From a virus: DNA of 64,000 nt. The notes under the pieces were generated by a model that was not told the DNA's origin, did no database searches, and saw only the letters and a list, made by a program, of their open reading frames with translations. Position numbers and translations under genes: made by a program. Shown in pieces: positions 4,181-57,850 of the stretch. The first letter of the stretch is position 1, and each line of letters starts with the position of its first letter. Location: IMG/VR virus record IMGVR_UViG_3300045947_000193, positions 2,384 through 66,383 of that record. One strand, written 5' to 3'.

Positions 4181-4192
4181 ATGGCGCAGCGG

Positions 4193-4414
4193 TCACGCGC
4201 TGGATGTTGTGCTCACCCTGTACCCATGGCTTTCATCCTGGCGCGCGCGTGCTTCTCGCAGCAGACGCCGGATACACGCGCTAGCGCCGTCCGGCTGGTC
4301 TTTTGCCCATTCCCAGTCCGCAGGGGAGAGAAGCAGTTGAAACCGTACATACCCCTGGGGCTTTGGCCCTGTTTTCTTTTTGGGTTTCTGTGGTGTGGTG
4401 TCTTGGTAATTCAT
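4193..4414 (-). CDS. Small ribbon-helix-helix regulator
   Basis: KKKTGPKPQGYVRFQLLLSPADWEWAK...GASACIRRLLREAR; AT-rich divergent promoter region upstream. Confidence 0.6.
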   Translation of the reverse strand: MNYQDTTPQKPKKKTGPKPQGYVRFQLLLSPADWEWAKDQPDGASACIRRLLREARARQDESHGYRVSTTSSA

Positions 4415-4538: not shown

Positions 4539-5420
4539 ATGGCTGAGCCCGCAACCCTCTCCACTGATTCCCGGCGCACGCATGCCTTCTACGTGGACGA
4601 TGACCTCATAGACACCTACGCCGAGCAGATAGGGGTGAATGGGATTGCCGTCTATACCCTCCTGGTACGCTACGCCAAACGCCACCACGCCTGGCCCGGC
4701 TATAAGACGATCACGGCGAAGTTGCACATTGGCCGCAGTACCCTGGTGCGCACGCTGGCCCGCCTGGAGCGCGTCGGACTCATCACCATCACCCGGCGCT
4801 ACACCACAGCGGGGGACCGAGACACCAACCTCTATACCATTCTCGACCTGCACCAGCCCCCCGAGCAGCTCACCCTGGAGGGTGGTCCCACAGTGGCACC
4901 AGGTGGTCCTATGGCGGCGCCACGGTGGTCCTGTAACGGTAGCACGGTGGTACCGGAGCAGGACTGGAAGGAATCTCATTTGAAGGAATCTCATTTAAGG
5001 AAAGACACACCCCCTTCCCCCTCAGAGAGGGGGGGAGTGTGCGACCTCACCCCATTGCTGCGCAGTAAACGCCCGAAGAAAACCCCCAGGCCGCCGTCCC
5101 TCGATGAGCAGCAGGCCCTGTACCACCACGTCACAGATACGGCCTTCCAGGGGTGGTACCACAGCACCGCCCTGCCCTATGACCTCGACGACCAGTGGGC
5201 ACGCTTCATGATCGACGCAGGCGCCAATGGCCGGGAGTATGCCGACTGGCGCGACGCTTTCAAAAACTGGCTGTTGTCCCCGTTCCGGCGCATCCCGACC
5301 GGCGACGAGCCCAGCAAGGCCGACGCGCGCGACGCCCGCAACAAGGCCACAAGCATCCAACTGGAGGCACTCATTACCAATGGACGCGCAACACATACCC
5401 GCATTCACCAAGGCTCTTGA
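4539..5420 (+). CDS. Phage replication initiator (N-terminal winged HTH)
   Basis: IAVYTLLVRYA...AWPGYKTITAKLHIGRSTLVRTLARLERVGLITI...RDTNLYTI; C-terminal YADWRDAFKNWL; internal iterons. Confidence 0.8.
   Translation: MAEPATLSTDSRRTHAFYVDDDLIDTYAEQIGVNGIAVYTLLVRYAKRHHAWPGYKTITAKLHIGRSTLVRTLARLERVGLITITRRYTTAGDRDTNLYTILDLHQPPEQLTLEGGPTVAPGGPMAAPRWSCNGSTVVPEQDWKESHLKESHLRKDTPPSPSERGGVCDLTPLLRSKRPKKTPRPPSLDEQQALYHHVTDTAFQGWYHSTALPYDLDDQWARFMIDAGANGREYADWRDAFKNWLLSPFRRIPTGDEPSKADARDARNKATSIQLEALITNGRATHTRIHQGS
4881..4996 (+). repeat. Iterons / putative replication origin 1
   Basis: GGTGGT(C/A)C at 4881, 4902, 4924, 4946 (21-22 bp spacing), then tandem 15-mer GAAGGAATCTCATTT at 4967-4996. Confidence 0.7.
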
Positions 5421-44300: not shown

Positions 44301-47263
44301 ATGCGCTAGCCTATAACCTCCTGGAGCAAGCAGACAGGAAGAAGCGCCCCACGTTCAACTTCCGGGGACGCTTTCAGCCCATGCACGACCTCCCCCCGGA
44401 AGCCCTCTGGCGCATTGTGGAGCCCATGCTTGAAGGCCAAAGAAGCCGTGGTGCGTCGATCACCAGAGACCCGCGCTGGACCACCCTGGACATTTACCCG
44501 GTAGGCCATCGCATCCACCGCAACAGCAACATGAAAGAAGTGCCTGGCGCCGAGGGCGAACCTAGCACCTGGGTAGAACAACCGGAGCTGACCGAGCGCA
44601 GCGAACAGCATGCGATGGAAGCCCAGGCCGAGGTATTAGGGAAGCTCGCCCTGCATCAATACCTGTACTTCCAGCGTGGTGGCAGTATCTGGGACGTGAG
44701 CCGCCATGAGCGCTACAGCCCACCCATCCAGAAGGCTCACACCTTCACCCTGGGGAAAGCCCGCGTCAAGGGCCACTGGCGCATGCTAGAGCAGGGTCCC
44801 GTGTACGTGCACACCTACCACCGCCCGGACCGGCCCGGAGGGGTAGCTGAACCGGCGCAGCAGCTTGGCCTGTTTGGTGCACCTGTGAGCAGCCTACGCA
44901 CCACGCAACCGGCACCGCTCAAGCATACCCCGGAGCCACCCGCGCCCGTGGTCCCCGAGCGGGCACCCGTGCAGATCGCCAAGCCGGAGCCCAGCCCGCC
45001 GCCGAAGCCGTCCCCGTTTCTGAGCTTTCCCAACGACACGGGCACGCCGACCCCCGAGCAACGCCAGGATGCTATCGACACCGTGTGGAACATGGAGGCA
45101 CCGCTGCGCGCCTTTGAGCGCTTCTTTACCCGGAAGGATGCCCCACCCTCCGCCATGCGCACGGCTCTCTTGCTCTACCAGGGCGCCAGGCCCGCCGTGG
45201 GCGAACGCTTCCGGGAGCGCCTGACCACCCTCACCGACACGACCACGCGCCGCAGTCTGCATGCCGTGGTCGACTTCGCCGCCCAGGACCTGACCAACGT
45301 AGGCCAGCACCTGATAGCCATGGCCATGAAGTACGGCATGCGTGACACCGACCTGCCCGCTGGGCTAGAGCGGGATGCGTTCCAGCGCTACCAGCACAAC
45401 AACCCCTATGCGCGGGGGACCCCGCTCCCGCCTGACGTGACCCCGGCGCCCGCCCCAGCACCGGAGCCAGCCCTGACGTTTCCGGCTGACGACAAGCGCC
45501 CAAGCAAAAAGGAGCGCGAACAGGCATACAATGCCGTCTGGGCAGTTGAAGGCCCGCTGCATGACTTTGAGAGCTATTTTACTGGCCCCAATGCCCCGAA
45601 CACCCCCTGGCGTGGTGCGCTCAACTTCTACCGTGGCGCCCGCCCTGGGACCGTAGGGACGCACTACCGCGCCGCTGTCCAGGGCATCCACAGCCGCCAG
45701 AACGCCCACCCGACGCCCACCCGTGCCAGCCTGCACCGGGCTGTTGAGCGGGCTCAGCAGGAGATGGAGTCTGTGGGCAAGAAGTACATGGCCGCCATGC
45801 GTGGCATGGGCATGGACACCCCGGACGTGCCCCCTGGACCACTCCGCGACACGTTTACGCAGTACGCCCGCTTGCTCGACGCCGAGCCCGCCGCTGAGCA
45901 GACGCCCGCTGTCCCACCGGCACCCCCCAGCTACCGCAGTCTGAGCCTCAAGCTCGACCGCACCCAGGACATCCCGGTCACCAGCCTGTATGCGCGCACG
46001 GCCAAGGAGGTAGCCGGTATCTTTGAAGAGATGCGCCAGGGCGAGCGCGAGAAACTCATGGCCGTGCACACCGATGCAGACGGCAGAATCCGCAGCCTGG
46101 AATGTATCAGCATGGGGACCCTCAACTCTAGCCCTGGGACCATCCGGGAGGTACTCAAGGCCGCCGTGGTCCAGGGCACAAGCGGTATGTGGCTCATTCA
46201 CAACCACCCCTCTGGCGCGTCGGACCCGAGCGAAGACGACAAGGTTCTGACCCGCAAGGTCAACGACTATGGCAAGCGCTTAGGTATCACCCTGCACGGC
46301 CATGTCGTCATAGGCGAGCACGGCTACCACGCCCTGAACCCGGAGGGCCACACCAACGGCGAGAGCGCCTACCCGACCGGCACCGAGACCGAAGGCAAAG
46401 TGCCCATGGTTGCGTTGCGGCAACACCGCGAAGCCGAACCGATGTTACAGGGCAAGCAGCTCAAGAACTGGCATGAGGTAGCCGACATGGGGAAGCAGCT
46501 CCTACGCGGGGGAGCCCACCAGACCTATGTCGTGCTCACGGACACGCGGCTGCGTGTCAATGCCGCCATCCCCATCAAGAGCACCGGCGAGGGGCAGGCC
46601 CAGCAGGACGCCCTCAATGAAGTGCTCCGGCAAGCCATCCTGCACAATGCCCATGCGGTGACCCTGGTCTCTGACGTGGAGAAACGCGAGCGCTTTTTTG
46701 GGTTTAGCAAGCGCCTGCATCAGGCCCTGGACCGAACCGGCATGCACTTGATGGACGCCGTGCACCTACGCGGCGATACCTACGCCTCTGCACGCGGAGA
46801 GGGCATGATTAAAGCCCTGGTGATCGACCTCAGCAAGGCCCGCAAGCTGCACGGACGGCGCCGCTGGCAGGGGATGCAGCTCAGTATTGAGAACCGCAAG
46901 GGGAGCATCCGACGTGGGCACGATCACGACGGCAAGCCGTGGGCGAACAAGATGCAGCACCCCTATGGCTACATCAAGGGGACGGTGGGTATGGACGGCG
47001 CCCAGATTGACTGCTTTGTAGGGCCACACCCCGGCGCCCCGCATGTCTATGTGGTGACCACCCGCAAAGCCCCGGACTTCCAGGTAGCCGATGAGCAGAA
47101 GTGCTTTATTGGCTTCACCTCCGCGAAGAAGGCCAAGCAAGCGTTTCTCACGCACTACGATGACCCGCGTCATTTCGGCAACATGCTGGAGATGCCCGTA
47201 GAGGAATTTAAGGCCAAGGCCAAGGCCACCATGGAGAACCCTGGTGCGATCCAGGCCGTATAG
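41303..47263 (+). CDS. 1986-aa polyvalent protein: DUF3560-like, 3x SH3-like, duplicated helical domain, RadC/JAB, inorganic pyrophosphatase-like
   Basis: EPLKPDHYSYNRHR; three G..V....GTI..VGP repeats; HNHPSG...PSEDD..LT; SIENRKGSIRRG...YGYIKGTVGMDG..IDCFVG. Confidence 0.85.
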   Translation: MLQFVLLLNKAHVKGHWRTTPTGQRVYVSPHERQDQEGYDPSQLPLFGAPAARPPEPAPPPKPEPEPEPEPEPVPTPEPEPEPEPVQAETTPATIPEYVKDAVKLNAERIHYFNEEVERLRKLGQRFGSPGRYEYEYRTEHEHQFDANVDKLKYIEGLAEKNGFSLEQLYAHVEGGRPEKIPWSMAASAWGRPREPKTTPEPTPPPAPAPEPEPTATTPEPWQMTRREFRHAENAPKVQAIQAAIRAGKRITAVTQLRVTPLTSPEHIRLTSTGHVQTRERTTWVNMTDDMVDTLAAQAGMKLPDFMEKVYHRAEVAQALKEGKPVPPEVLAEYPELSSQEDEEPEEAPPAIQHRPLTEDAIHNWDAPYIQKQYGEHPEEIRQAAMQAMRRHHQKGTSAREEAQALNAQFGLTKEPEPTPTPEPVDTTTAQLDQAEHDLGDLEGDVASTERAHTADTEDEQDDDAEGDGDEGEQTFSLITGRTYPLRRDLVSLGARWHADEKGYIVPTGKAEQVEAYARSKGLTVGKVDLPAEDYHREKLTGEALRAHRQAGLDKKITRWRSQAARLEKQAAALEARLKPYDDMQFWTEPLKPDHYSYNRHRNLRERLRAMMDKRMGMLRDAHALRQKADGWDRAGAQIAGDRERQRQAQREMVSSQVTVGSRIHDAIYGKGTVVKVNPKTFTVRYDNGHTSATDKSHAMPLGETVPLAELKEQTRPKYKKGDTVRFNSFGQDRVGTITSVGPRSYSIRVHGAVQTSPLKVDHQRVLGPDTTPEPAPAAAPSAPLRRGQFVRFTHGVLSSTPRYGTITNVGPDTYTIRAMDGGRILEVNHKDVMAKARNTPRLVLLLNKAHVKGHWRTIPTGQRVYVAAHERQDDPHAWSSQMPLFGAPRGTLVTVHQLTPQEAPAFASPEAPAVTAMPVSVPAPVRPTPKEAPHLPMPEKASKHPRRAESAPAETYALRPGGRFNFTSQEIDQIVTMIQEYQKGADHPSLRLRPQVKEYALAYNLLEQADRKKRPTFNFRGRFQPMHDLPPEALWRIVEPMLEGQRSRGASITRDPRWTTLDIYPVGHRIHRNSNMKEVPGAEGEPSTWVEQPELTERSEQHAMEAQAEVLGKLALHQYLYFQRGGSIWDVSRHERYSPPIQKAHTFTLGKARVKGHWRMLEQGPVYVHTYHRPDRPGGVAEPAQQLGLFGAPVSSLRTTQPAPLKHTPEPPAPVVPERAPVQIAKPEPSPPPKPSPFLSFPNDTGTPTPEQRQDAIDTVWNMEAPLRAFERFFTRKDAPPSAMRTALLLYQGARPAVGERFRERLTTLTDTTTRRSLHAVVDFAAQDLTNVGQHLIAMAMKYGMRDTDLPAGLERDAFQRYQHNNPYARGTPLPPDVTPAPAPAPEPALTFPADDKRPSKKEREQAYNAVWAVEGPLHDFESYFTGPNAPNTPWRGALNFYRGARPGTVGTHYRAAVQGIHSRQNAHPTPTRASLHRAVERAQQEMESVGKKYMAAMRGMGMDTPDVPPGPLRDTFTQYARLLDAEPAAEQTPAVPPAPPSYRSLSLKLDRTQDIPVTSLYARTAKEVAGIFEEMRQGEREKLMAVHTDADGRIRSLECISMGTLNSSPGTIREVLKAAVVQGTSGMWLIHNHPSGASDPSEDDKVLTRKVNDYGKRLGITLHGHVVIGEHGYHALNPEGHTNGESAYPTGTETEGKVPMVALRQHREAEPMLQGKQLKNWHEVADMGKQLLRGGAHQTYVVLTDTRLRVNAAIPIKSTGEGQAQQDALNEVLRQAILHNAHAVTLVSDVEKRERFFGFSKRLHQALDRTGMHLMDAVHLRGDTYASARGEGMIKALVIDLSKARKLHGRRRWQGMQLSIENRKGSIRRGHDHDGKPWANKMQHPYGYIKGTVGMDGAQIDCFVGPHPGAPHVYVVTTRKAPDFQVADEQKCFIGFTSAKKAKQAFLTHYDDPRHFGNMLEMPVEEFKAKAKATMENPGAIQAV

Positions 47264-47273
47264 GAGCGCTCCT

Positions 47274-50200
47274 ATGGTCACCCGCACAGCCCCTACGCCC
47301 CTGCCCGCCGTGGTGTATCTGCACGGCAGCGACCGCCCGCACCCGTGCTACGTGCGCCTCATGCCCCGCCTGGCCAAGGCCAAGGACATCCCGCCTGGTG
47401 CGCGCTGGATTACCGTGCACCCCAACGGCATGGAAGAGAAGGGTGTCCCGATTCTCATAGAGCCCCGAGGCGACGGCTCGTGGAGCGTCACGGCTGGCGC
47501 CGGTGGCAAGCTCAACTATCTCCGCCTGACCAACGTCAAGAGCGAAGCCGAGTACAGACAGACCGCCAGAGAGCGTGCCGAGCAACGCCGGGAAGCCCAG
47601 AAGGAGCGCGAAGCCATCACGCCGCCCGAAGTCAAAAAAGCCCAGCGCGAAGCCCGAACCGCCGTGCAGCAACAGGCCCGCATCGCGCAACGCGCCTTGA
47701 TAGAGCGCGTCAGGGCGACCCTGGGTGGGGTGAGTGCGGACCTGCCCCCGGAGCGCCTGGCTGGCCTGACCCTGGGCGCCCAGAGTCTCATAGCATCCCG
47801 CCATCACCGCAAGCAGCTCAGCGAAGCCCGCGCACAGTTGGCGGAGCAGAAGCGGACCCTGCTCCTTGACGCCGACGCGCGCGCCGCCATTGGTATGGGC
47901 GACCTGCCCCTGCATGGCAAGACGGACGCCGGGCTCTTTGGTGGTCCCACCCTGGGGCTCACCGACCTGGAGCCCGAACCGACCGGCGCCAGCCGTGGCC
48001 CCAGCCGCCGCGAGAAGGCCACCGCCAACATCATTGACGACCTGCAAAAGCTCGACGTAGACGCCACCAAGCAGGCCCTGGAGCAGCTTGACGAGCAGGA
48101 GCCCGACGCCGACACCGAGCGCGCCCGCGCCAAGTTACAGGCCCAACTGGACGCGCGCGCCCTCCTCGATACCAGCCCGGAGAATCACAAGGCCATTGTG
48201 GACCTGGTGCTCACCCCGGACAAGCAGGCCATGATTGACGACACCGTGGCTGCCCTCAACGCTGAAGGCCGGGACGAGGAAGCCGAGCGCTTACAAAACG
48301 GCTCAGCCGGGTTGCGTGCCTTGCATGCCGAAGTACGCCAGGCGAAGCAGGCCGGACTGACCGACACCGACCAGACCGCTGTGCTGAAGCAGCCCGCTGC
48401 AGACATTGTCGACATGCTCAAGCAAGAGAAAGAGGTTGCCGCCGCTGAGCAGGACGCCCGCCGCATGAAGAAGACCATAGAGACGGGTGGGGTGGTCGAC
48501 ACACAAAAAGCCTTCCGGGTGATGACCTCAGAAGCCCTGGACAAGCAGGTGATCAGCGACTTGCAGGACCAGATACGCGCGGACCTGGCACACAGCATGC
48601 TGGAACACGTCAAGGGCAAGGAAGAGACGGCCTACCGGGCTCCTATTGCCGCTGGCATGCAGAGCGCCATAGATAACTTGTCCCTGGCAGCATTAGGGAG
48701 TGCCATGCTCAGCCGGGATGTGATCGACTTTCTAGGCCCCAAAAGCTCCGCGCAACTGCTGGCCTGGCACTTGCACAACACCATCCCTGGCGAGATGGAG
48801 CGCATCCGGGAAGGCGTGGAAGCGCACCACGCCGCAACGGAGAGCAAGCTGGCGGAGGAAGCCCTCAAGGCCGCAGACCCGCTGCTCAAAGAAGCGGAGC
48901 GCATGGCCCAGACCATGACCGATGAGCCGAGCGACCTCAAGGCCGCCCTGGAACAGAACCGCCAGCGCCTGGACCTCCTGGAGCAGGCCCGTGGGCTCAT
49001 TGGCACCACCCTGGGACGCCTGGAAGGCCAGGCCCTCCTTGGGGAAGCGCTGCGCCGCCCGCCTGTGGAGCACCTGGAGGTGAGTCTAGGAACCGTGGGC
49101 AATGCCGACGTACTCATGGCCGCGCGTGCGTTAGGGCTCACCCCGGACGACTTCAGCATGGACCTGGTGGGAGGGACGCGCCTCATGACGATCCACCCGG
49201 ACGCCCTCCCCAAGCTGCTCAGTCAGACCCCCAAGGACGCCGTGCAACGCGCGCGCACGGTAGCCGACATCAAGGCCGGGAAGCACGACGAAGCCGACTG
49301 GCTCCCGGACGGCATTGTTGCCAGGCCCCTCACCGAGTTTACAGACCCCGTGCGCCAGGCCCACTATGCCACCACACCGCTGGAACTCACCGAGCAGATG
49401 AGTGAGCCCGATGCAGAGCACGCCATCCAGGCCCACGTTGCCAGCCGTGCCTACCTCGACGGCGCCGAAGATTTTAGAGACATACGCTCTGACCTGCTCA
49501 GTGCCGAGCGCCAGGCCACTATTCCCCCGGCCTTGCTGCCCACCTATCAGCGCATTGTGGAGGATGCTTTCCCCCTGGAGACCCCGCGCGCGCGGGAGCT
49601 GACGCACGAAATGGCCGGGATACGCCAGCAGCTAGAGGACCTGGAAACCCCCTCGATGTTTGGCCCACCCGCTGAGGGCGACCCCGACGCCTTGAAAAGC
49701 CGCCTGGCCGCCGCTGAGCGCGAACACGCCGAAGAGAGCCTGCCCGAGAAGCAAGAGGCAGCCCTGCACAGCCGCGCCGCGCAGTGGGTCAAGCCCTACC
49801 TGGACGCGCACCCAGAAATGACACCCCTCGATCACCAGAGTATTCCCGACACTGAAGACACGCGCCGCGCCGTGTTCCGCGCCCTGGCCAGTGTGCCAGA
49901 GGGGAGCGTGGCCTTTAAGAAGGTGGGGGAGCTAGGGGACCACGCCAGCACCAGCATGCTGCAGGAACACTTCTGGAAGCACCACAGCCCCATAAGCAAG
50001 GATGAAGCCCTAGAAGCCCGCCAGCAGCTCAAGGACCTGCCCAACCCTGGCAGAGACTGGCGCCAGTGGCAGGCCCAGCATGGCACGGGAGACGCCGCCT
50101 ACCATGCCATCCAGGCCCATCTGCAAAAAAAGGAAGAGGAGGAAGCTGGAGGGGGACTCTTTGGAGCGGTAGCAGAGCCCAACCTCATGGCCGCTGGCAA

Positions 50201-52583
50201 GCTCGACAACATAGAGGACCTGGCCACCATGGCTGGTATGATCACCGCCGACGATGCAGAGCCCATCTCCCGCGCCGCCCAACTGTACGCCTACGAGCGC
50301 GAGAACGACGCCGAGAAGCAGCAACGGATGGAGAGCCTGCAGCACCTGGTCAAGGGGCACTTGCGCGACATCTTTGACCGGCAAATTGCCAACGGGGGGA
50401 AGGGTGTCACCGCGCAAGACCGCGAGAACTACGACCGCGCCAAGCTCGCAGCGGACCCGTGGGCTGCCTACGTGCTGGCACACGGGGGAATCCGCCGCGC
50501 CAGGGAGGCACTGCTCTCTAGTGCCCGTGGCAAGTTTGCCGATGCCTTCAGCCACGCATACGGGCAGATCACCGGCGAGCCGCTGAAGACGGGCAAGCAA
50601 CGCCTGGCACAGTGGCAGGGGCATGTACGCGGGAGCATGAGCCCGGACGACCTCCTAGCGCACCTCAAGGAACAGCGTGCCAGCACCGCCAGTGCGCATG
50701 CCGCTGTGGCCCGCCGTGGCACGGGGGGACAGTTTGCAGAGGGGGAGCGCGCCGCTATCGCGACCGCCAGACAGGAGCAGGCCGCCGCGTCGCAGCTTGG
50801 CTTTTTCTCGCCCCAGCCCACCGTCACCAAGGCCGCGCGCCAGGCCGAGACCGACCGCACCACACTAGGGAAGTTGGCGGAGAATCAGCTAGGGGGAATC
50901 ATCAACCATCCGGGTTTTGCGCCCATTGTGGAGCAGATGAAGGCCACCGGAGGGCGAGGCGTCAAGCTCATGCCAGGGCTCAGTATGTCAGGCCAGTATG
51001 CCCCGCAGCAGCGCGCCGTCCGCATGATGGACGCCGCCAAACGGATAGCCATCCATGCTGGCGTAGGCAGTGGCAAGACCCTCATTGCCCTGGGGACCCA
51101 CACGCACCTGCACAACAAGGGCGACATCCACAAGACCATTATGGCCGTCCCCAGCGCCGTACAGGGCCAGCTCCCAGGGGAGATATTGCGCTATACGGAC
51201 CCTGGCAAGGTCAAATTTTTCGCGACGCCGGGTGCGGACCGTGCCACCCGCTTGCGTGCCCTGGCTGACCCCAAGACGCCGCTGGTAGTGGCCACGCATC
51301 AGAGCCTGAGAGATGACCTTGTCCACCTGGTAGCCGAGCATCAAGGCAAAAGCCCGGCAGAGGTAGCCACCTTCTTTCGCGACTCAGCGCAGAAGGACGG
51401 CCACCGCCAGGCCCTCAGAGCCGCCCTCGACAACGCCGGAATCCCGCCCAGCATTATGACCGTCCTGGACGAAGGCCACACCACGCTTGACCGCATGGGC
51501 AAAGACGACAGCCTCATGAGCAACGTCTTTACCGCGCTGTCCCACCCGGACAACTCGACGCATCACATGCTTATGACCGGCAGCCCGCTCAAGAACGATG
51601 TGAGCGAAATCTACAGCACGCTGGAAAAGTTGCACCCAGGCGAGTACACCGACCGTGACGCTTTCCTGCGGCAGTATGCGGTACTCACCCCTGCCTTACA
51701 GGAAAGCCTACAGCGCAAAGTGGCGTCGCATTTTTACGCCACGCGCGTCAGTCCGAGTGTCCCCGCGCATCATAAGGTGTTAGAGCACGACTTGAGCGAC
51801 GCCCAGAGCACCGCCGCCAACGCCGTACAGGAGCACTACGACCGGCTCCGACTGGCGCAGCAACGGGGAACGGTCGACCTCGACGCCGCGCGCGCCCTGA
51901 GCCCGAGCAGCTTTGCGCACCTCCCGGAGGACCAACACGAAGCCCGCGCGCGCCAGTTGCAAGAGAACGCTGGCCTACTCAGAGACAGTGCCCTGGCCCG
52001 CGTGATCCACAGCACCCCGCCCGCCGACAATGCCAAAATCCAGGCCATTGTGCAGCATGCCAGAATGCGCGTGGACCAGGGCAAGCCCGGTATCATCTTT
52101 GCGCACAACCGGGACGCCGTCCAACACCTGCATGACGCGCTGAAGGCCGCTGGGATACGGGTAGGCACCCTCACTGGCCAGCACACGGCTGGAGAGAAGA
52201 ACCGCGTGCGCCAGGCATTCCAGCCTGAGCAGGGCGACCCAAGTATAGATGTACTTGTGGCATCTGACGCCGGAGCCACCGGGTTGAACCTGCAACGCGG
52301 ACAATGGCTGCACCAGTATGACATTCCGCAAACGGCGATGATCAAGGAGCAGCGAGACGGACGCATCCACCGGCTAGGGCAGACCAACCCGGTAGAGCTG
52401 AGCATCTCCCGGACACGCACGCCCTACGATGCGCAAGCCTGGCAGCGCCTGCAAACCAAGCGCATGCTGGGGGAGGTGTTTCAATCGCCAGCGGACCAGC
52501 TCGACGATACCGGCCTGGCACAGTACCTGCATCACGCCGCTGTACAGCAGGATGAACGGGAGATGTTTCACCGCGCCGCCTAG
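47274..52583 (+). CDS. Giant protein with C-terminal SNF2-family helicase
   Basis: N-terminal ARWITVHPNG...GAGGKLN; AGVGSGKT, LDEGH, MTGSPLKND, SDAGATGLNLQ, EQRDGRIHRLGQ. Confidence 0.88.
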   Translation: MVTRTAPTPLPAVVYLHGSDRPHPCYVRLMPRLAKAKDIPPGARWITVHPNGMEEKGVPILIEPRGDGSWSVTAGAGGKLNYLRLTNVKSEAEYRQTARERAEQRREAQKEREAITPPEVKKAQREARTAVQQQARIAQRALIERVRATLGGVSADLPPERLAGLTLGAQSLIASRHHRKQLSEARAQLAEQKRTLLLDADARAAIGMGDLPLHGKTDAGLFGGPTLGLTDLEPEPTGASRGPSRREKATANIIDDLQKLDVDATKQALEQLDEQEPDADTERARAKLQAQLDARALLDTSPENHKAIVDLVLTPDKQAMIDDTVAALNAEGRDEEAERLQNGSAGLRALHAEVRQAKQAGLTDTDQTAVLKQPAADIVDMLKQEKEVAAAEQDARRMKKTIETGGVVDTQKAFRVMTSEALDKQVISDLQDQIRADLAHSMLEHVKGKEETAYRAPIAAGMQSAIDNLSLAALGSAMLSRDVIDFLGPKSSAQLLAWHLHNTIPGEMERIREGVEAHHAATESKLAEEALKAADPLLKEAERMAQTMTDEPSDLKAALEQNRQRLDLLEQARGLIGTTLGRLEGQALLGEALRRPPVEHLEVSLGTVGNADVLMAARALGLTPDDFSMDLVGGTRLMTIHPDALPKLLSQTPKDAVQRARTVADIKAGKHDEADWLPDGIVARPLTEFTDPVRQAHYATTPLELTEQMSEPDAEHAIQAHVASRAYLDGAEDFRDIRSDLLSAERQATIPPALLPTYQRIVEDAFPLETPRARELTHEMAGIRQQLEDLETPSMFGPPAEGDPDALKSRLAAAEREHAEESLPEKQEAALHSRAAQWVKPYLDAHPEMTPLDHQSIPDTEDTRRAVFRALASVPEGSVAFKKVGELGDHASTSMLQEHFWKHHSPISKDEALEARQQLKDLPNPGRDWRQWQAQHGTGDAAYHAIQAHLQKKEEEEAGGGLFGAVAEPNLMAAGKLDNIEDLATMAGMITADDAEPISRAAQLYAYERENDAEKQQRMESLQHLVKGHLRDIFDRQIANGGKGVTAQDRENYDRAKLAADPWAAYVLAHGGIRRAREALLSSARGKFADAFSHAYGQITGEPLKTGKQRLAQWQGHVRGSMSPDDLLAHLKEQRASTASAHAAVARRGTGGQFAEGERAAIATARQEQAAASQLGFFSPQPTVTKAARQAETDRTTLGKLAENQLGGIINHPGFAPIVEQMKATGGRGVKLMPGLSMSGQYAPQQRAVRMMDAAKRIAIHAGVGSGKTLIALGTHTHLHNKGDIHKTIMAVPSAVQGQLPGEILRYTDPGKVKFFATPGADRATRLRALADPKTPLVVATHQSLRDDLVHLVAEHQGKSPAEVATFFRDSAQKDGHRQALRAALDNAGIPPSIMTVLDEGHTTLDRMGKDDSLMSNVFTALSHPDNSTHHMLMTGSPLKNDVSEIYSTLEKLHPGEYTDRDAFLRQYAVLTPALQESLQRKVASHFYATRVSPSVPAHHKVLEHDLSDAQSTAANAVQEHYDRLRLAQQRGTVDLDAARALSPSSFAHLPEDQHEARARQLQENAGLLRDSALARVIHSTPPADNAKIQAIVQHARMRVDQGKPGIIFAHNRDAVQHLHDALKAAGIRVGTLTGQHTAGEKNRVRQAFQPEQGDPSIDVLVASDAGATGLNLQRGQWLHQYDIPQTAMIKEQRDGRIHRLGQTNPVELSISRTRTPYDAQAWQRLQTKRMLGEVFQSPADQLDDTGLAQYLHHAAVQQDEREMFHRAA

Positions 52584-52596
52584 AGAGGGGAGAAGG

Positions 52597-53821
52597 ATGG
52601 ACCTGGCAGAGGCACTGGAACGCCTCATACACACGGAATGCGACACGATCACCGTCTATGGACAAGCCCGCCATCCGTTGACAGGACGGGAGCAGAGCTG
52701 GACCGTCACCTTGATTACCAATCAGTCCAAACGCGCCCACCTGAAGCGCGTCGGAGAGGGCGCCACGGTGACGGAGGCGCTCTGCGCGGCCCTGGCGGAG
52801 GAGGGCACCACGGTAGCCGATCACGCCAAGCGCCGGAGCCATCGGAACAGCTTAGGCTTGGAAGGTATCCCCGCCAAGTATCAGGGCAAAACCTTCAAGA
52901 AGGCGCTGCGCTCACGTCTGTTGTACTAGAAAGGATGTGCCCTATGGAACCCCGCGAGCAGTTACAGGCAGCCCTGGCTGTGATCGAAGCCCACGCCCGC
53001 AGTGCGCACAAGCGACAGCAGGACCTGGAAGCGCTGGCCAGCGACAGCGACGCCCGGCTGCAGCAGGCCCTCAGCCGCTACCAGGCGATTCTGCCCGCAC
53101 TCGGAGCAGGCAAGAACCGCGCCATAGAGCGCGACTATGTCAACCGGCTGGGGGACCGTCGCAGCATGACGCTGGCGCCGATGGAGCACGAGACCCCAGG
53201 ACAGGAAGGCTGAGAGGAGGGACCATCATGGCAGAGGAGCGCGTGCGACTGATGCCCCAGGGTATCCGTCCGATAGGCATGTGCATGCAAGGCTTTGGCG
53301 TCGACGCAGAGGCACAACTCCGCGCCATGTGCAATGGTGCACTCCCCGTGGTAGGGCAGCGGTATGTCTGGCTGTGTACGGCTGTCCAGACCGACGCCGA
53401 CCCGGTCTATGCCCATTTTACCTTGATCCCCGTGGACGAGTAGAGGGGGACCCCGTGCCCGAGCAGCTCCCCACGCTGTACGTGTCTGATGGCACCCCGG
53501 CCTTTACGCACCCGCGCGCCCATGCGGGCACCCTCACCCGCTGCGTGACCGCGCACCCGGCCCCCGTGTGTACCTGTGGCATGTATGCCCTGGTCTGGCT
53601 GAAACCTGGAGAGGAGCCCCCGGATGACCGGCCCGACCGGCAATACGTGTAGACGCTGCCACAAGCGGATTGTCCGCCCTGAAGAGGACGCATTAATCCT
53701 CACCAAGGCCCTCCAGATACGCCAGGGCGTGCTGTACCTCCAGTGTCAGTGTGGCACCTGGAATGCCGCACCCTCACGCCTGTGTGACCGTCTGCGGCTC
53801 ATTTTGATCCTGACGGCCTAG
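52597..53821 (+). CDS. Small hypothetical ORFs (52597-52929, 52944-53213, 53228-53443, 53624-53821)
   Basis: RBS-led; the last is a zinc ribbon (CRRC...CQC). Confidence 0.5.
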
Positions 53822-55518
53822 CCCGCCGCGCCTTTCCTCCCCGTTCCTAGCCCCTCCTCCCACGCCAGGCCCGTCATGTCACCTCTTTACGTGATGTGTA
53901 CAAGGGGAAAATCACGCCCGCAACGCCTGGCCGCCCGCGTCAGGCCATGCCATCCATGCCTTGCCTGCCTGGCCCCGCCCGGCCCCGCGCCGCCCCGCAT
54001 GGCCTCACCATACGCTCCATGCCCTGCCCCGCCTGCCATGCGAGCCCTAGCCTGACCTGTCGACCCATGCTGCGCCTTGCCTGCCAAGCCATGCCCCACT
54101 CCGCCTCTGCAAGCCGTGCCCGCCGAGACATGCCGCGCCCGTCCTTCCTGGTCCGTGCCATCCTTGCGAAGCCTGCCACGCCGGACCGTGCCAGTGCTGG
54201 CGCCACCGGCCCTCGCGCCGCCACTCCAGGCCCGCCGTGCCATCCCGAGCGCCGCCCAGACATGCCGACCCTCGCCCAGCCTGCCACGTCACCCCTAGCG
54301 ACACCTACCACCCTTGTACTGCCATGCCAGCCGCACCGCGCCAATCCTCCCGTGCCGCACCCCTCCCTTCCTGGCGCTCCCGCGCCCGCCGTCCCGTGCC
54401 CCGCCGTCCCTAGCCTCACCGTCCTTGCCAACCCCGGCCAGGCCGCGCGGTCCCTTGCGATACCCCGCCTGCCATGCCACGCCCATCCTCACCAACCATG
54501 CCCTGCTATGCGCGTCAGAGCCTTGCCTTGTCTCGCCCGCCGCACCAATCCTCTCCCTTGCTCGCCAACGCACGACAAGCTAGGCCCGTCCTTGCCTCGC
54601 CCGCCAAGCCACGCCATGTGTAGCCTAGCCCAGCCCGCCGTCCGCGCCCGTCGACACCGCGCCAATCGAGGACGGTCGACGCCTTGCCCGCCGCCCCGCG
54701 CCTCTGCGTACCACTCCGCCCATGCCAGGCCCGCCGTGCCTATCAGCGCCTGTCCTCACCGTCCAAACCACGCCAGCCGCGCCGCTGCGCCCTCGCCCAG
54801 CCTTGGCTCACCAGTCCATGCGTCGCCTGCCTGGCCTGTCCCTACCCCTCCTCTCCGATCCAAGGTGTCCCTATCCCTGCCGAGCCTGCCACGTCTCGCC
54901 TAGTCTCTCCGCCCTCACCATGCCCTGCGCTGCCTGGCCCGCCTTGCCACTCCTTGTCAGGCCCTACCGTCCCCGCGCTGCCTGACCCTCCGCCGCCTGG
55001 CCCGCCACGTCTCGCCTGGCCTTCCGGCCCTACCCGGCCCACGCCATGCCTACCCAGCCGGTCCGACCCTCTCCCTGGCATGTCAGTGCTTGTCCAGCCA
55101 ATGCACGCCTGTCCTCCCTCGCCAAGCCGTGCCCGCCGTGCCACCTGTCCCCGCCTGACCATGCCCGTGCTCGCCACGCGGTCCGTCGCCACGCCTGCCT
55201 TGCCAGTCCTCACCCGTCCGGTCCACACCGTCCCCGCCGTGTCACGCCTGCCCACGCCAGCCCTCGCCCGCCTTGGCAATCCGCGCCTTTCCTCTCCACA
55301 CCGTCCGCGCCTTGTGACGCCTGGCCAGCCTCCCTCGCCGTGGCCACCCTCGCCATCCTTTCCGGCCCAACCCACGCCATGCCTGACATACCAGTCCGCG
55401 CCAGTCCTGGCCATTCCACCCGTGCCGGTCCGGTCCCAGCTTCGCCGGTCCCAGCCAAGCCCGCCACTCCCTGCCAGTCCCCGCCATCCAAGGCATACCT
55501 CGCCCGCCATGCCATGTC
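53818..55518 (-). repeat. Non-coding array of GG-anchored 5-nt units (GGC-NN dominant), putative guide-RNA array
   Basis: Minus strand reads e.g. GGCA GGCAA GGCGC AGCAT GGGTC; GGCG GGCGA GGCAA GGACG GGCCT; 5-nt period with recurring 4-nt GGCA/GGCG/GGCT slips; only low-complexity ORFs in six frames. Confidence 0.85.
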
Positions 55519-55533
55519 TGTGTGTTGACGGGC

Positions 55534-56034
55534 TTACGACGCGCGCCGCCGCCGTCCCCGGCGCCCACGGGCTTGCTCCCGTGCGGACGGCTCCTGCGTG
55601 GGCACTACCACCTTGGACGCCTGCGCCACCGACGCCACCAAATCCTCAAACATGCGGTACCGCCACATCCAGGCCCGTAGCCCGATAAGCGCCGTCTGCA
55701 GCATCTCCTCCCGGAGCACGTCGTCTACGAGAACCTCCTGCATCACTCGGTAGCCCCCGCCAGGCCGTCCCCGGTCTGATTGCAGCGACAGGTACACCGT
55801 CTCGACCTTGCGTGGGACCTCTGGAGGAGGCACCACATAGACCGTGCGTATGAGCCGCCGCGCCTGGTCGACGCGGTATTGATGGCCCGCTACGCGATCA
55901 TCCCACTCAAAATGTGGATGCAACGCACTGGCAGGATTACTGGCAGCTTGCACCACAGCCACCGGCTGGAGCAAGCGCTCCGGGTGCGCTGCATGGATGG
56001 CTTCCAGCTCCCTACGCACCGCCGCTGGTAGCAT
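55534..56034 (-). CDS. Accessory protein of the RAMP-like/array operon
   Basis: LQPVAVVQAASNPASALHPHFEWDD..AG.QYR..QARRLIR; RBS AGAGGAG inside the upstream gene; basic tail. Confidence 0.8.
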   Translation of the reverse strand: MLPAAVRRELEAIHAAHPERLLQPVAVVQAASNPASALHPHFEWDDRVAGHQYRVDQARRLIRTVYVVPPPEVPRKVETVYLSLQSDRGRPGGGYRVMQEVLVDDVLREEMLQTALIGLRAWMWRYRMFEDLVASVAQASKVVVPTQEPSAREQARGRRGRRRRAS

Positions 56035-56737
56035 CGGCAAACTCCTCTCTGGTGATCAGCTCGAAAAAGCCCATATCAATCCCATTACTCTGCTTGCTAT
56101 CTGCCCGGCCCTCGCCCACCGCGACCTGTGCCCCCATGCGCGTAATCAAGTTGGTAATGTCCGACTCACTGAACAAGTCCGCGTCGTAGCGCACGCGCAG
56201 CTTGACATGCCACTCTGTCCACAGCGGACGGCTGCGTATATCGGTGACTCCAGAGGCGTTGCGCACATGCATATGGTTCTCTACGGGCTCTCCGTAAATC
56301 CGTACCAGGGGTGTCCCGTCTGCCACGTCCAGGCCGTCTGCGACCACGAACACAGCCAGCTTGGCTTTGGTCATATGGTAGCCCACCGTGCGACAGGCAG
56401 AAATCATGCCGTTCCTGAAGGCACCGCACGGGATGCCACAACTCCCGTCCGCCATCTTATGCTTGGCATTCTCATAGTCTTCCGTAAAGTTGCGCGGCTC
56501 CCGGACCTTCTTCGACCGTGCCTGGGTCCCCTGTGCCTGGGTGTCCATCATTTTCTGCAAGGTCTTTTCCGAGAAGCGCAGTTGGAGATACGGCGTCGTG
56601 CCCCGCAGGTAAAACTCTAAAAAGCGCTGATTGAGGGGCTTGATACTGATGGCCGTGGCCACCGTATTCACCGGCTCCTCTGCGGGGACCGTGCCGGTGT
56701 GTTTCGCCGTCTTGCGTGGTGTCGTTGCTGTCGCCAT
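56012..56737 (-). CDS. Solitary Cas7/RAMP-like protein
   Basis: N-terminal strand LRGTTPYL, IPCGAFRNGMISAC helix, DIRSRP..TEW..KLRVRY, Gly-rich C-terminal loop MGAQVAVGEGRADSKQSNGIDMGFFEL; RBS AGGAGG. Confidence 0.7.
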   Translation of the reverse strand: MATATTPRKTAKHTGTVPAEEPVNTVATAISIKPLNQRFLEFYLRGTTPYLQLRFSEKTLQKMMDTQAQGTQARSKKVREPRNFTEDYENAKHKMADGSCGIPCGAFRNGMISACRTVGYHMTKAKLAVFVVADGLDVADGTPLVRIYGEPVENHMHVRNASGVTDIRSRPLWTEWHVKLRVRYDADLFSESDITNLITRMGAQVAVGEGRADSKQSNGIDMGFFELITREEFADATSGGA

Positions 56738-56803: not shown

Positions 56804-56867
56804 ACTATATACGACGCAGCAAAAAGGGGTCAAGAACATTCGTGATAAATTATCTTGATAATGTATC
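56804..56867 (-). promoter_or_regulatory. Promoter of the RAMP-like operon plus tandem GATA-N3-TATC operator
   Basis: Minus-strand TTGACC(56833)-N18-TATAGT(56809); GATAaatTATC-TT-GATAatgTATC at 56844-56867. Confidence 0.7.
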
Positions 56868-56972: not shown

Positions 56973-57021
56973 GGCCGCCGTATCTGGGAGGATATTTTCC
57001 CAGGAACGGCGGCCTTTTTTT
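56973..57021 (+). terminator. Intrinsic terminator in the leader of the protease-capsid operon
   Basis: GGCCGCCGT..CTGGGA-loop-TCCCAG..ACGGCGGCC followed by T7. Confidence 0.75.
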
Positions 57022-57040
57022 GTGCCCGGAGACGGACCCC

Positions 57041-57850
57041 ATGGCCGCAGTGCTCCCGGAAACCACGCGCCACTTCCTGGTGGACTTTGGCCTGGTCAAG
57101 GCCGAACCCCTCACCCCAGGCCAGCCCTGGATGATCTACATCCAGGCATCCACCCCTGGTGTGGACTACGACGGGGAGCGCGTGCTGCCCCAGGCCATGC
57201 AGGACGCCCGGCCTTATTTCCTGGCCAATGGGCGTATCAGCTACGAGCACATCACCCCGGACACCCGACATGACCCCAGCGTGCTGATAGGCGAACCCAG
57301 GGAGATGACCATCACCCCCGATGGCCGGACCCTGGTCAAAGCCGAACTGTACCAGCGCGTCAAGAAGGCCCAGGAAGTCTGGGACATCTTGCAGAGCGGG
57401 GGAAAGATGAAGGCCAGTGTGGGTGGCTCAATCCTGCGCCGTCAGCAGGACGTGACCGGCACCCCCGTGGTCACCAAGCTATTCCTCAACCACATCGCCC
57501 TGACCCCCTGGCCCGTCAACGATGACACCAATGTCCAGCTCACGCCTTACGACTCCTTCATGAAAGCGCTGGGGTACCGCGTCCATAAGGCCCTGGGTGC
57601 GACCACAGGCACCAGTGCCCAGCCGCTGGTCATGCAGGACCTGGAAGGTCAACGCCAACGCCTCACCCCTGCCTTTGCCACGCGCTGGCAGGCCCTCACC
57701 GACATCATTCAGCAACTCAGCCAGGAGCGCGGCAAAGCCCTGTCGGACGACGACGCCCGGCAGTGTGCCCTGGCCGTGCTTATCCGCCGTGGAGAAGCGC
57801 GGCAGGCATATGTCGCCGCCAGTGGGAACCGGCTCCCCGGCAGCGTCTAG
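57041..57850 (+). CDS. Prohead protease
   Basis: ASTPGVDYDGERV, F..NG.ISYEH, LIGEP, ASVGG, HIALTPWPVN; upstream of scaffold and capsid. Confidence 0.85.
   Translation: MAAVLPETTRHFLVDFGLVKAEPLTPGQPWMIYIQASTPGVDYDGERVLPQAMQDARPYFLANGRISYEHITPDTRHDPSVLIGEPREMTITPDGRTLVKAELYQRVKKAQEVWDILQSGGKMKASVGGSILRRQQDVTGTPVVTKLFLNHIALTPWPVNDDTNVQLTPYDSFMKALGYRVHKALGATTGTSAQPLVMQDLEGQRQRLTPAFATRWQALTDIIQQLSQERGKALSDDDARQCALAVLIRRGEARQAYVAASGNRLPGSV

What the first reader, a model, noticed from the sequence alone, without database searches (positions are those of the whole stretch)
53917..55518. Higher-order punctuation divides the pentamer array into ~25-30 non-identical units
By hand-parsing the minus strand, the 5-nt phase is reset by a 4-nt GGCA/GGCG/GGCT (giving GGCNGGC) roughly every 30-80 nt. 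Many units also contain one internal 4-nt slip (GGAC, GGAT, GGGA, GGGT, GGGC). No two units looked identical, unlike a slippage microsatellite. Inference: GGCNGGC marks processing boundaries and each unit of roughly 6-15 pentamers is a separate guide. Counts are approximate.
Basis: partly seen in the sequence, partly recalled or inferred. Interest (0 to 1): 0.8.

Follow-up and report, generated by a model that had tools for sequence, protein, structure and literature searches.

The report
Phage VIPR guide-RNA array
This 1.6-kb run of five-letter repeats is most likely an array of about 26 guide RNAs for a phage-encoded VIPR system, a CRISPR-like way, first described in 2026, for phages to silence rival genetic elements.

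Summary
On the minus strand, 53917-55518 is a G-rich (G 49.5%) array of 331 units with a 4.85-nt period. GG is conserved (0.67-0.69 bits) and the last two positions are near random (1.94-1.96 bits). There are 28 GGCNGGC sites, mostly 34-83 nt apart, spaced far more evenly than chance. No two of the 26 units they delimit are alike.

The array lies directly downstream of two genes. The first (56015-56737, minus) is a homologue of the SUSP1 Vipr protein (PDB 36pp, E 4e-12; hhalign 97.9%), and its model matches CRISPR type III/VII effector-complex chains. The second (55534-56040) is a conserved accessory gene.

The same gene pair with a same-strand array recurs in 14 of 16 related contigs, and also in cyanophage Cy-LDV1 and mycobacteriophage Quico.

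This matches VIPR systems (bioRxiv 10.64898/2026.04.26.720920): GGY/NN guide RNAs of 9-16 repeats. It fits the "staggered array" form, where guides abut at a 1-nt overlap.

Processing at GGCNGGC and targets are not shown here: five exact target scans found nothing.

Unusual here: array size, purines at position 3, and one internal GGRN step per unit.

The parts
56804..56833 (-). Promoter-like site (TTGACC, 18-nt spacer, TATAGT) upstream of vipr
   Evidence: Consensus scan, 10 of 12 matches; 2 sites found in the region against 0.7 +/- 0.8 in shuffles. This is a pattern match only.
56012..56737 (-). vipr: 241-aa RAMP-family Vipr homologue (ATG at 56737 preceded by AAGGAGG; stop codon at 56012-56014)
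   Evidence: Start and RBS read. A profile of 16 relatives hits PDB 36pp 'SUSP1 Vipr protein', E 4.1e-12. hhalign against SUSP1 YP_009199429 gives probability 97.9%, E 4.6e-13. The AF2 model (pLDDT 78.5) gives 37 Foldseek PDB matches at E <= 1e-3, led by chains of type III Csm/Cmr and type VII complexes and Cas7-11. Also matches phrog_4652.
55534..56040 (-). vap-like accessory gene (166-168 aa, Arg-rich C-terminal tail), overlapping the end of vipr
   Evidence: Matches phrog_15946, E 2.4e-16. It is conserved next to the vipr homologue in 15 of 16 relatives. The family has 14,029 cluster representatives at E <= 1e-3. The AF2 model has pLDDT 85 and is helical, with only weak forkhead/winged-helix matches at E 0.5-3. 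It is not homologous to SUSP1 vap1 (hhalign probability 0.35%).
53917..55518 (-). Staggered vrRNA array: 331 GG(Y)NN units in about 26 guide-sized units. The 28 GGCNGGC sites start at 55508, 55465, 55330, 55272, 55262, 55252, 55199, 55137, 55006, 54943, 54890, 54831, 54778, 54735, 54692, 54639, 54605, 54541, 54473, 54390, 54332, 54285, 54236, 54177, 54124, 54085, 54037 and 53969
   Evidence: The array begins 16 nt after the vap stop codon.
53810..53875 (-). Trailing pentamer-like stretch with one more GGCGGGC, separated from the main array by a 41-nt non-repeat interruption (53876-53916)
   Evidence: Read from the sequence. Periodicity power is 2.1-2.6 in windows starting at 53701-53851, above the window's 95th percentile. 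Not parsed formally.

Best explanation
The array is the guide-RNA (vrRNA) array of a phage-encoded VIPR system.

Proposed mechanism:
- One minus-strand transcription unit runs from a promoter near 56.8 kb through vipr (a small Cas7-like RAMP protein) and a vap-like accessory gene into 1.6-1.7 kb of GG(Y)NN pentamers.
- By analogy with the characterised SUSP1 system, one Vipr protomer binds each repeat.
- The protomers sequester GGY and present the two variable bases. These pair with a DNA target while skipping every third target base, and this silences genes of competing phages or satellites.
- Here the guides have no structured tail. They abut directly, and a 4-nt step (GGCN followed by GGC, a 1-nt frame overlap) marks each junction. 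This gives about 26 different guides of roughly 8-17 repeats.

Shown: the anatomy, the Vipr homology and fold, the conserved gene-array linkage and strand, the non-random boundaries, and unit-wise turnover.

Inferred from published work on other VIPR types: transcription and processing into separate RNAs, binding by Vipr, and DNA targeting with a 1-nt skip.
For: 1. Vipr homology: profile E 4.1e-12 to PDB 36pp SUSP1 Vipr; hhalign 97.9%. The model matches chains of type III Csm/Cmr and type VII effector complexes and Cas7-11 (E 2e-5 to 1e-3).

2. Same locus plan as SUSP1, that is vipr, then an accessory gene, then a downstream array. The published description is a two-gene operon flanked by vrRNAs.

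3. Repeat grammar: GG at 0.67/0.69 bits and NN at 1.94/1.96 bits. Units of median 55.5 nt, about 11 repeats, against the published 9-16 repeats.

4. Linkage: 14 of 16 distinct related contigs carry a same-strand array with a 4.85-4.95-nt period beside the gene pair. So do Cy-LDV1 and Quico. In L001 a second array lies between a near-consensus promoter and the vipr start.

5. Boundaries: regular spacing and enriched contexts, ACGGCGGGC 5 observed against 0.58 expected and TGGCAGGC 6 against 1.4. Relatives use lineage-specific GGCA, GGCC or GGCT steps every 8-18 repeats.

6. Modularity: between L003 and L017 (73-79% DNA identity), 1 of 54 unit pairs shares its NN code (88%) and all others are <= 33%.

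7. NN usage in the window fits sense codon positions 1-2 best, r 0.67 against -0.38 to 0.42 for five other frames.

8. No self-match under the 1-nt skip rule rose above the 0- and 2-nt skip controls: best fraction 0.86 for skip 1, 0.93 and 0.86 for the controls.
Against: - No natural target was found. Exact 1-nt-skip patterns of two window guides gave 0 hits in viral contigs and metagenome contigs, and one Quico guide gave 0 hits. A local mismatch-tolerant search of 219.5 kb showed no excess for skip 1 over skips 0 and 2. These searches had low power.
- Nothing bears on whether the array is cut into separate RNAs (no small-RNA data; see Tried and rejected).
- The window's array is the least canonical of the 15 parsed: GGY in 54% of 5-nt units against 60-96% in the others, and purine at position 3 in 29% against 0-13%.
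- Two of the five SUSP1 RNA-contact residues named in 10.64898/2026.04.26.720927 are not kept here: H17 becomes L and W178 becomes G.
- The codon-like NN signal is weak in pooled relatives (r 0.26, likelihood below uniform).
- There is no 3' tail as in type II.
- The accessory protein is unrelated to vap1. Its place among vap1-6 could not be checked because the supplements were closed.
Confidence: 0.85

Rival explanations
1. It is a VIPR array, but every 4-nt step, internal GGRN steps included, is a vrRNA junction. The locus would then encode about 52 short guides of about 5-6 repeats rather than about 26 guides of about 11.
For: All 52 4-nt steps together are evenly spaced, with mean 6.4 units and CV 0.48 against 0.90. 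The Fig. S18 legend ties junctions to 1-nt overlaps in general. The SUSP1 filament has a six-subunit helical repeat.
Against: The published guides are 9-16 repeats. Relatives with clean arrays have steps only every 8-18 repeats. Boundary and internal steps differ in composition: GGC+N in 26 of 26 boundary steps against GGRN in 19 of 27 internal ones. They also alternate, which suggests two different roles. Guides with 10-12 informative bases would have little specificity.
Confidence: 0.1
2. It is a decaying or partly inactive VIPR array. The locus descends from a working system, but many units have drifted (purines at position 3, units without GG, extra slips) and no longer make functional guides.
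For: It has the lowest GGY share (54%) and the highest 4-nt share (0.16) of the 15 arrays parsed. Vipr lacks the Trp and His contacts of SUSP1. No targets were found.
Against: GG is still kept at 88% per position, and the phase stays coherent over at least 400 nt. The slips are ordered, not random. Both genes are intact with a good RBS and promoter. The G-loop change (GEGR) is shared with L001, L010 and L002, whose arrays are canonical. GGA-type units are the norm in L007.
Confidence: 0.1
3. It is not a guide array. Alternatives are a DNA-level or structural element (a protein-binding iteron array, a G-quadruplex or R-loop former, an origin) or plain slippage DNA that happens to lie beside these genes.
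For: Strong G/C strand skew and GG every 5 nt could form two-tier G-quadruplexes or R-loops when transcribed (inference). No RNA processing data exist.
Against: Slippage would give near-identical units. Here 101 distinct pentamers occur among the 277 5-nt units, and NN is near maximal entropy. The array always lies on the coding strand of a Vipr homologue across distant phages. In L001 it sits in a transcribed leader. The period of 4.85 nt does not fit the DNA helical repeat. Rfam found no known RNA family. The long ORFs across the array match no Pfam family, 0 of 4, and there is no 3-nt periodicity.
Confidence: 0.04

Closest known systems
VIPR systems with staggered vrRNA arrays (bioRxiv 10.64898/2026.04.26.720920, Fig. 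S18 legend; type not determinable here)
   Same: Phage-encoded. A vipr RAMP gene plus one accessory gene. GGY/NN pentamer repeats on the coding strand downstream (and, in relatives, upstream) of the genes. Guide-sized units of about 9-16 repeats that abut through a 1-nt frame overlap. No self-targeting signal.
   Different: About 26 guides in one 1.6-kb array, against 4 vrRNAs in SUSP1. Mixed boundary letters (G 14, A 10, T 4), where relatives use a single letter. One internal GGRN step in 16 of 25 units. Position 3 is purine in 29% of units. I saw only the figure legend, not the figure or supplementary data, so I cannot say whether these features are already documented.
Type II VIPR of Escherichia phage SUSP1 (PDB 36pp; NC_028808)
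   Same: Homologous Vipr (hhalign 97.9%). The same gene order and strand logic. Pentamer repeats with conserved GG. R138, D177 (as E) and R179 equivalents are kept.
   Different: SUSP1 vrRNAs use GGT units, each followed by a hairpin tail of about 40 nt and a spacer; the window has no tails. vap1 is unrelated to the window's accessory protein. H17 and W178 equivalents are L and G here. Vipr is 241 aa here against 195-202 aa.
CRISPR arrays with Cas7-family (type I/III) effectors
   Same: Arrays of many different guides next to a RAMP protein that polymerises along the RNA and flips bases at a fixed period. Guide content turns over between relatives.
   Different: There are no 24-48-nt direct repeats, no spacers of contiguous sequence, and no cas1/cas2 or other cas genes in the locus. 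The period is 5 nt, not 60-79 nt. The variable information is split into dinucleotides.
TRAP-trp leader RNA (11 GAG/UAG triplets with 2-3-nt spacers); recalled, not tested
   Same: Conserved triplets separated by two free bases, about 11 per roughly 53-nt unit.
   Different: No TRAP-like protein is present. The neighbouring protein is a Vipr homologue. This resemblance was an early lead only.

Membership tests
VIPR system | A vipr gene encoding a RAMP homologue adjacent to the repeats | tested here: met
   Profile E 4.1e-12 to PDB 36pp SUSP1 Vipr. hhalign probability 97.9%. Foldseek gave 37 PDB matches at E <= 1e-3, led by chains of type III/VII effector complexes and Cas7-11. The tool gives entry titles only, so reading these chains as the Cas7-family subunits is my inference.
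VIPR system | RAMP hallmarks and the GGY-contacting residues of SUSP1 Vipr (H17, R138, D177, W178, R179) | tested here: inconclusive
   By alignment, R138 and R179 are invariant in 16 of 16 sequences, and D177 is E. H17 is L and W178 is G in the window (GEGR against GEWR/GDWR). The thumb and G-loop were not inspected in 3D.
VIPR system | vrRNAs made of tandem YNNGG (GGY/NN) repeats with conserved GGY and hypervariable NN, 9-16 per guide | tested here: met
   Entropy 0.67/0.69 bits (GG), 1.57 (position 3), 1.94/1.96 (NN). Of the 26 units, 21 have 9-17 repeats, 3 have 7-8, and 2 (27 and 28 repeats) probably contain a degenerate junction. Position 3 is only 71% pyrimidine. The preprint also lists NNNGG variants.
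VIPR system | Two-gene operon with a vap accessory gene (vap1-6) | tested here: inconclusive
   A conserved small gene follows vipr in 15 of 16 relatives. It is not vap1. Only weak winged-helix-like matches were found.
VIPR system | Invariable structured 3' tail after each repeat tract (type II) | tested here: not met
   No non-repeat segment lies between units, in contrast to SUSP1. The preprint says array architecture differs between types, including tail-less staggered arrays. So this excludes type II architecture, not VIPR membership.
VIPR system | Staggered array: adjacent vrRNAs overlap by 1 nt | tested here: met
   26-28 GGCN+GGC 4-nt steps with regular spacing and enriched flanks. The same is seen in relatives. 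The match rests on the wording of the figure legend only.
VIPR system | vrRNAs are expressed as discrete small RNAs and co-purify with Vipr | not testable with these tools
   Only assembled metatranscriptome contigs were available. They cover the whole 10 kb and give no ends.
VIPR system | NN dinucleotides match DNA targets with a 1-nt skip, typically in genes of competing mobile elements | tested here: inconclusive
   0 hits for 2 window guides and 1 Quico guide by exact pattern. There was no skip-1 excess in 219.5 kb of held sequence. Indirect support: NN usage fits codon positions 1-2 (r 0.67).
VIPR system | Mostly encoded by phages or proviruses | tested here: met
   The genome is a 66,383-nt single contig treated by the tools as a virus record. 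It has a head maturation protease. All related loci come from viral contigs or phage records, except L012, which lies on a contig of a bacterial metagenome-assembled genome (Salinarimonas sp.).
CRISPR array | Direct repeats of 24-48 nt alternating with contiguous spacers, with cas genes nearby | tested here: not met
   TRF and the autocorrelation show no such period. There is no PADLOC match for the two genes.
Slippage microsatellite | Near-identical short units with random indels | tested here: not met
   101 distinct pentamers among 277. The indels are ordered.

The most novel reading that the evidence does not exclude
In this lineage the VIPR code may include a second, deliberate signal. 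Most guides carry one pyrimidine-less 4-nt repeat (GG+RN) about mid-guide, alternating with the GGCN junctions. This occurs in a system whose Vipr has lost the Trp and His that hold the two guanines in SUSP1, and whose position 3 tolerates purines.

If the internal step is functional, it could act as a hinge near the six-subunit helical repeat or as a change of register on the target. VIPR guides could then be bipartite, and the published GGY/NN, 1-nt-skip grammar would be only one dialect.
Probability: 0.15. Interest if true: 0.6.

Novelty: new member of a known kind. Interest (0 to 1): 0.4.

Why it matters
VIPR was described only in 2026, and the experiments so far are on type II systems with tailed guides. 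This locus is a large natural example of the tail-less, staggered form, with about 26 different guides.

It comes from an abundant soil phage: 18 DNA runs and 6 RNA-library runs from soil metagenomes hold it. It also has a different accessory protein and an altered RNA-binding loop.

It offers a ready test case for three questions: how junctions are cut without a tail, whether 4-nt repeats and purines at position 3 are tolerated, and what a soil phage aims so many guides at.

The same gene pair and arrays sit unannotated in well-studied phages (mycobacteriophage Quico and relatives, Gordonia phages, cyanophage Cy-LDV1). There the bench work would be easy.

The finding also shows that the array grammar can be recognised from raw sequence alone.

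Tried and rejected
Early leads dropped:
- TRAP-like ring binding of about 11 triplets per roughly 53-nt unit, G-quadruplex or R-loop origin, Chi or PAM decoy, and centromere iterons. All were set aside once the neighbouring gene proved to be a Vipr homologue.
- Rfam at gathering threshold: 0 matches in the window. tRNA/tmRNA: 0.
- blastn of the locus against 50,697 phage records: no match.
- Pfam found nothing for vipr, vap, or 4 ORFs across the array. PADLOC found nothing.
- The search for related loci with the 306-aa ORF as a single query found no relative. The search for homologous proteins with Vap gave only 2 hits.

Vap fold:
- Foldseek PDB gave no match at E <= 1e-3, only forkhead domains at E 0.5-3.
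- BFVD gave only uncharacterised phage proteins.
- The ESM Atlas gave only viral hypothetical proteins.

Target searches:
- Local search of 16 runs of 7 or more repeats against the phage's own genome plus 16 loci (219,507 nt). Mean best NN match was 0.773, 0.776 and 0.771 for skips 0, 1 and 2. Skip 3 trivially finds the array itself.
- Exact 1-nt-skip patterns: guide 54886-54832 gave 0 hits in viral contigs and 0 in metagenome contigs. Guide 54232-54178 gave 0 and 0. The first 12 dinucleotides of a Quico guide gave 0 in viral contigs.
- These scans need perfect matches over 22-24 bases and covered 2 of 26 window guides. They do not count against targeting.

RNA evidence:
- Four metatranscriptome runs from 3 samples hold the locus as Logan contigs at 100% identity. 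They cover flanking genes on both strands equally (X19 depth about 52 throughout). So transcription of the array is not shown and no ends can be read.
- A contig break with an adapter at 54660 in X19/X20 (one sample) is not at a GGCNGGC site.

Other:
- The codon-composition test on 608 NN from 15 relatives' arrays was weak (r 0.26) and partly confounded by conserved AA before junctions.
- No trace of recent duplication of a roughly 53-nt unit: autocorrelation at lags 44-73 is flat at 0.40-0.41.
- The supplementary files of the VIPR preprints were closed. The type assignment, vap1-6, and the drawing of staggered arrays may all be documented there.
Full report
WHAT IS THERE

The window is bases 2384-66383 of a 66,383-nt single-contig genome that the tools treat as a virus record. 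It has a head maturation protease at 57020-57850 (phrog_1028). It also has a 1779-aa SNF2-type helicase at 47244-52583, whose nearest named relatives are in Bordetella, Thermus and Morganella phages.

Between these genes, on the minus strand, 53917-55518 is 72% G+C with G 49.5% and C 22.5%.
- Base-identity autocorrelation peaks at lags 5, 10, 15, 19, 24, 29, 34 and 39. That is a 4.85-nt period. There is no 3-nt signal: 0.26 at lag 3 against 0.46 at lag 5.
- Phase coherence persists to lags of about 400 nt.
- No other part of the 64-kb window shows this period.
- Tandem Repeats Finder, Rfam and ARAGORN report nothing relevant.

PARSING THE ARRAY

A Viterbi parse into units that start with GG gave 331 units: 277 of 5 nt, 52 of 4 nt and 2 others.
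- Positions 1-2 are G in 88% of units (0.67 and 0.69 bits).
- Position 3 is C 61%, A 19%, G 10%, T 10% (1.57 bits).
- Positions 4-5 are close to random (1.94 and 1.96 bits), and all 16 dinucleotides are used.

- There are 28 GGCNGGC sites (N = G 14, A 10, T 4). Of their 27 spacings, 23 lie between 34 and 83 nt.
- The 4-nt steps are much more evenly spaced than random: CV 0.48 against 0.90, with 0 of 5000 permutations as low.
- Junction contexts are enriched over unit shuffles: ACGGCGGGC 5 against 0.58, and TGGCAGGC 6 against 1.4.
Junction steps are GGC+N in 26 of 26 cases. Internal steps are GG+purine+N in 19 of 27, against 29% purine at position 3 in ordinary units (P = 1.2e-5).
- The two kinds alternate. 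16 of 25 junction-to-junction intervals hold exactly one internal step, against 6.4 +/- 2.2 expected (P = 5e-5).
- The 26 units delimited by junctions have a median of 55.5 nt, and none resembles another.

SURROUNDINGS

The array starts 16 nt after the stop codon of a 166-168-aa ORF (55534-56040, minus; phrog_15946). That ORF overlaps the end of an ORF whose real start is probably the ATG at 56737, behind an AAGGAGG site. This gives a 241-aa protein (phrog_4652). A promoter-like site (TTGACC, 18 nt, TATAGT) lies at 56833-56804. No terminator-like site was found between the genes and the array. So the anatomy suggests one minus-strand transcript that runs into the array. This is inferred, not shown.

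RELATED SEQUENCES

Searches with the 168-aa protein and its alignment gave 16 distinct related loci: 15 viral contigs and one Salinarimonas MAG contig.
- In 14 of 16, a G-periodic array with a 4.85-4.95-nt period lies beside the gene pair, on the coding strand. It is downstream in 13, upstream only in L019, and both upstream and downstream in L001.
- L006 has a short array of about 85-110 nt, seen only by eye. L021 has only scattered motifs.
- In L001 the upstream array sits between a near-consensus promoter and the start of the first gene, so there it is part of a transcribed leader.
- A homologue of the 241-aa protein lies directly upstream of the 168-aa homologue in 15 of 16 loci. The L012 contig is too short to tell.
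- The relatives' arrays are cleaner than the window's. In L022, 15 copies of AAGGCCGGC are spaced 54-74 nt apart, always 4 + 5k, with 9-13 NNGGC pentamers in between. L003 and L017 use GGCT steps, and most others use GGCA.
- The same gene pair and GGCAGGC-punctuated arrays occur in cyanophage Cy-LDV1 and mycobacteriophage Quico, where the genes are annotated as hypothetical. In total, 31 phage records match the 241-aa protein: 25 Mycobacterium, 5 Gordonia and 1 cyanophage.
- The 168-aa family is very large: 14,029 cluster representatives at E <= 1e-3.

WHAT IT IS

A full-text search led to bioRxiv 10.64898/2026.04.26.720920. I read its Results, Discussion and three Methods sections, plus passages that include supplementary figure legends. 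I did not see the figures or supplementary files.

- a small RAMP-family Vipr protein;
- an accessory vap gene;
- vrRNAs of 9-16 YNNGG repeats in which GGY is conserved and NN is hypervariable, encoded upstream of the genes and in arrays downstream.

The NN bases pair with double-stranded DNA while skipping every third target base, usually the wobble position. Natural targets are competing phages and satellites. Seven types exist, with differing array architecture. [quoted passage not shown] S18 legend).

Companion preprints add three points. One Vipr protomer binds each repeat in a helical filament with a six-subunit repeat (10.64898/2026.04.26.720927; abstract and section 5). Guide calling and targeting were further studied in SUSP1 (10.64898/2026.10.15.759431; passages). 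About 99 clusters of intergenic regions with 5-nt periodicity were recovered independently (10.64898/2026.10.21.760802; passages).

MEMBERSHIP TESTS

Met:
- The profile of the 241-aa family hits PDB 36pp, 'SUSP1 Vipr protein', at E 4.1e-12 over nearly full length.
- hhalign against the SUSP1 gene product gives 97.9% probability.
- The AlphaFold model (pLDDT 78.5) finds chains of type III Csm/Cmr and type VII effector complexes and Cas7-11 as its best PDB matches. There are 37 at E <= 1e-3.
- SUSP1 has the same gene order, with vrRNAs downstream of the second gene.

Differences:
- The window's accessory protein is not homologous to SUSP1 vap1. Its model is helical, with only weak winged-helix-like matches.
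- SUSP1 vrRNAs carry hairpin tails of about 40 nt and spacers. The window's units abut with no tail. So this is not a type II system, and it fits the staggered form.
- Of five RNA-contact residues named for SUSP1 Vipr, R138 and R179 are invariant in my 16-sequence alignment and D177 is E. H17 is L and W178 is G in the window. The G-loop change is shared with L001, L010 and L002.

EVIDENCE ON FUNCTION

- Guide content turns over by unit. L003 and L017 are 73-79% identical in DNA, yet only 1 of 54 unit pairs shares its NN code (88%). All the rest are at or below 33%.
- The window's NN usage correlates best with sense codon positions 1-2 of the phage's own genes: r 0.67 against -0.38 to 0.42 for five other readings. 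That is what a wobble-skipping code aimed at genes would give. In 608 NN pooled from relatives the effect is weak (r 0.26).
- I found no target. A local mismatch-tolerant search showed no skip-1 excess. Exact-pattern scans of two window guides and one Quico guide found nothing in the viral and metagenome collections. These scans covered 2 of 26 guides and required perfect matches, so they say little.
- The phage is held by 18 soil metagenome DNA runs and 6 RNA-library runs. The four RNA runs laid are assembled contigs that cover the whole 10 kb evenly, so neither transcription of the array nor RNA ends can be read.

WHAT IS UNUSUAL

- With 331 repeats and about 26 guides, this is the longest array among the 15 I parsed. 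It is also the least canonical: GGY in 54% of 5-nt units against 60-96%, purine at position 3 in 29% against 0-13%, and the highest share of 4-nt steps at 0.16.
- The ordered internal GGRN step, one per guide in 16 of 25 guides, is not seen in the clean relatives.
- If read as GG+NN, 17 of 23 internal steps carry one of the six commonest NN dinucleotides. This would fit a repeat that lacks only its pyrimidine and keeps its two coding bases. That reading is an inference.
- Whether these features are tolerated variation, a functional hinge, extra junctions or decay is open.

VERDICT

The element belongs to a kind described in 2026, so it is a new member rather than a new kind.

Noticed in passing
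L029 (Mycobacterium phage Quico, NC_028751) 2595-2850; genes QUICO_57 and QUICO_58: Quico and 24 other Mycobacterium phage records, plus 5 Gordonia phage records, carry the vipr-vap pair annotated as hypothetical proteins. Quico has a clean GGC-NN array with GGCAGGC steps upstream of vipr.
   Followed up: partly
L028 (Cyanophage Cy-LDV1, BK059895) 4180-4380 and 4975-5135: This cyanophage has a Vipr homologue at 49.5% identity to the window's. It has two GGCAGGC-punctuated arrays, one between vipr and the next gene and one after that gene.
   Followed up: partly
L007 1743-2235: One relative uses GGA-type units (GGACC, GGATC, GGAGC) with GGCAGGA punctuation instead of GGC units. This is a different fixed triplet within the same gene family context.
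   Followed up: no
L004 6451-7040, L005 6397-6678, L021 5450-5800: One clade has much more degenerate arrays that keep only recurrent GG[CT]AAGGCAG[GT]C motifs. L021 fell below the periodicity threshold.
   Followed up: no
L001 4830-5295: A second array of about 400 nt lies between a near-consensus promoter (TTGACA, 17 nt, TATATT) and the RBS and ATG of the vipr homologue. The array is therefore a 5' leader there.
   Followed up: partly
window 54650-54660: In RNA-library runs X19 and X20 (one sample), contigs break here and one carries sequencing-adapter letters at 54660. The place lies in a degenerate, partly palindromic stretch of the array, not at a GGCNGGC site.
   Followed up: no
window 53876-53916: A 41-nt non-repeat interruption, with a short inverted repeat (GTGAT...ATCAC), separates the main array from one more pentamer stretch at about 53810-53875.
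   Followed up: no
window 51804-52582: One low-depth RNA-library contig (X22, depth 3) skips 777 nt inside the 3' part of the 1779-aa helicase gene.
   Followed up: no
L022 about 4030, L028 about 4375 and about 5135, L029 about 2850: Several relatives' arrays end in a similar AACCA-containing motif just before the next gene's RBS. The window's array does not.
   Followed up: no
L022 2890-4080: Within one array of about 1.15 kb, two pairs of units are near-duplicates about 430 nt apart. This suggests segmental duplication inside arrays.
   Followed up: no
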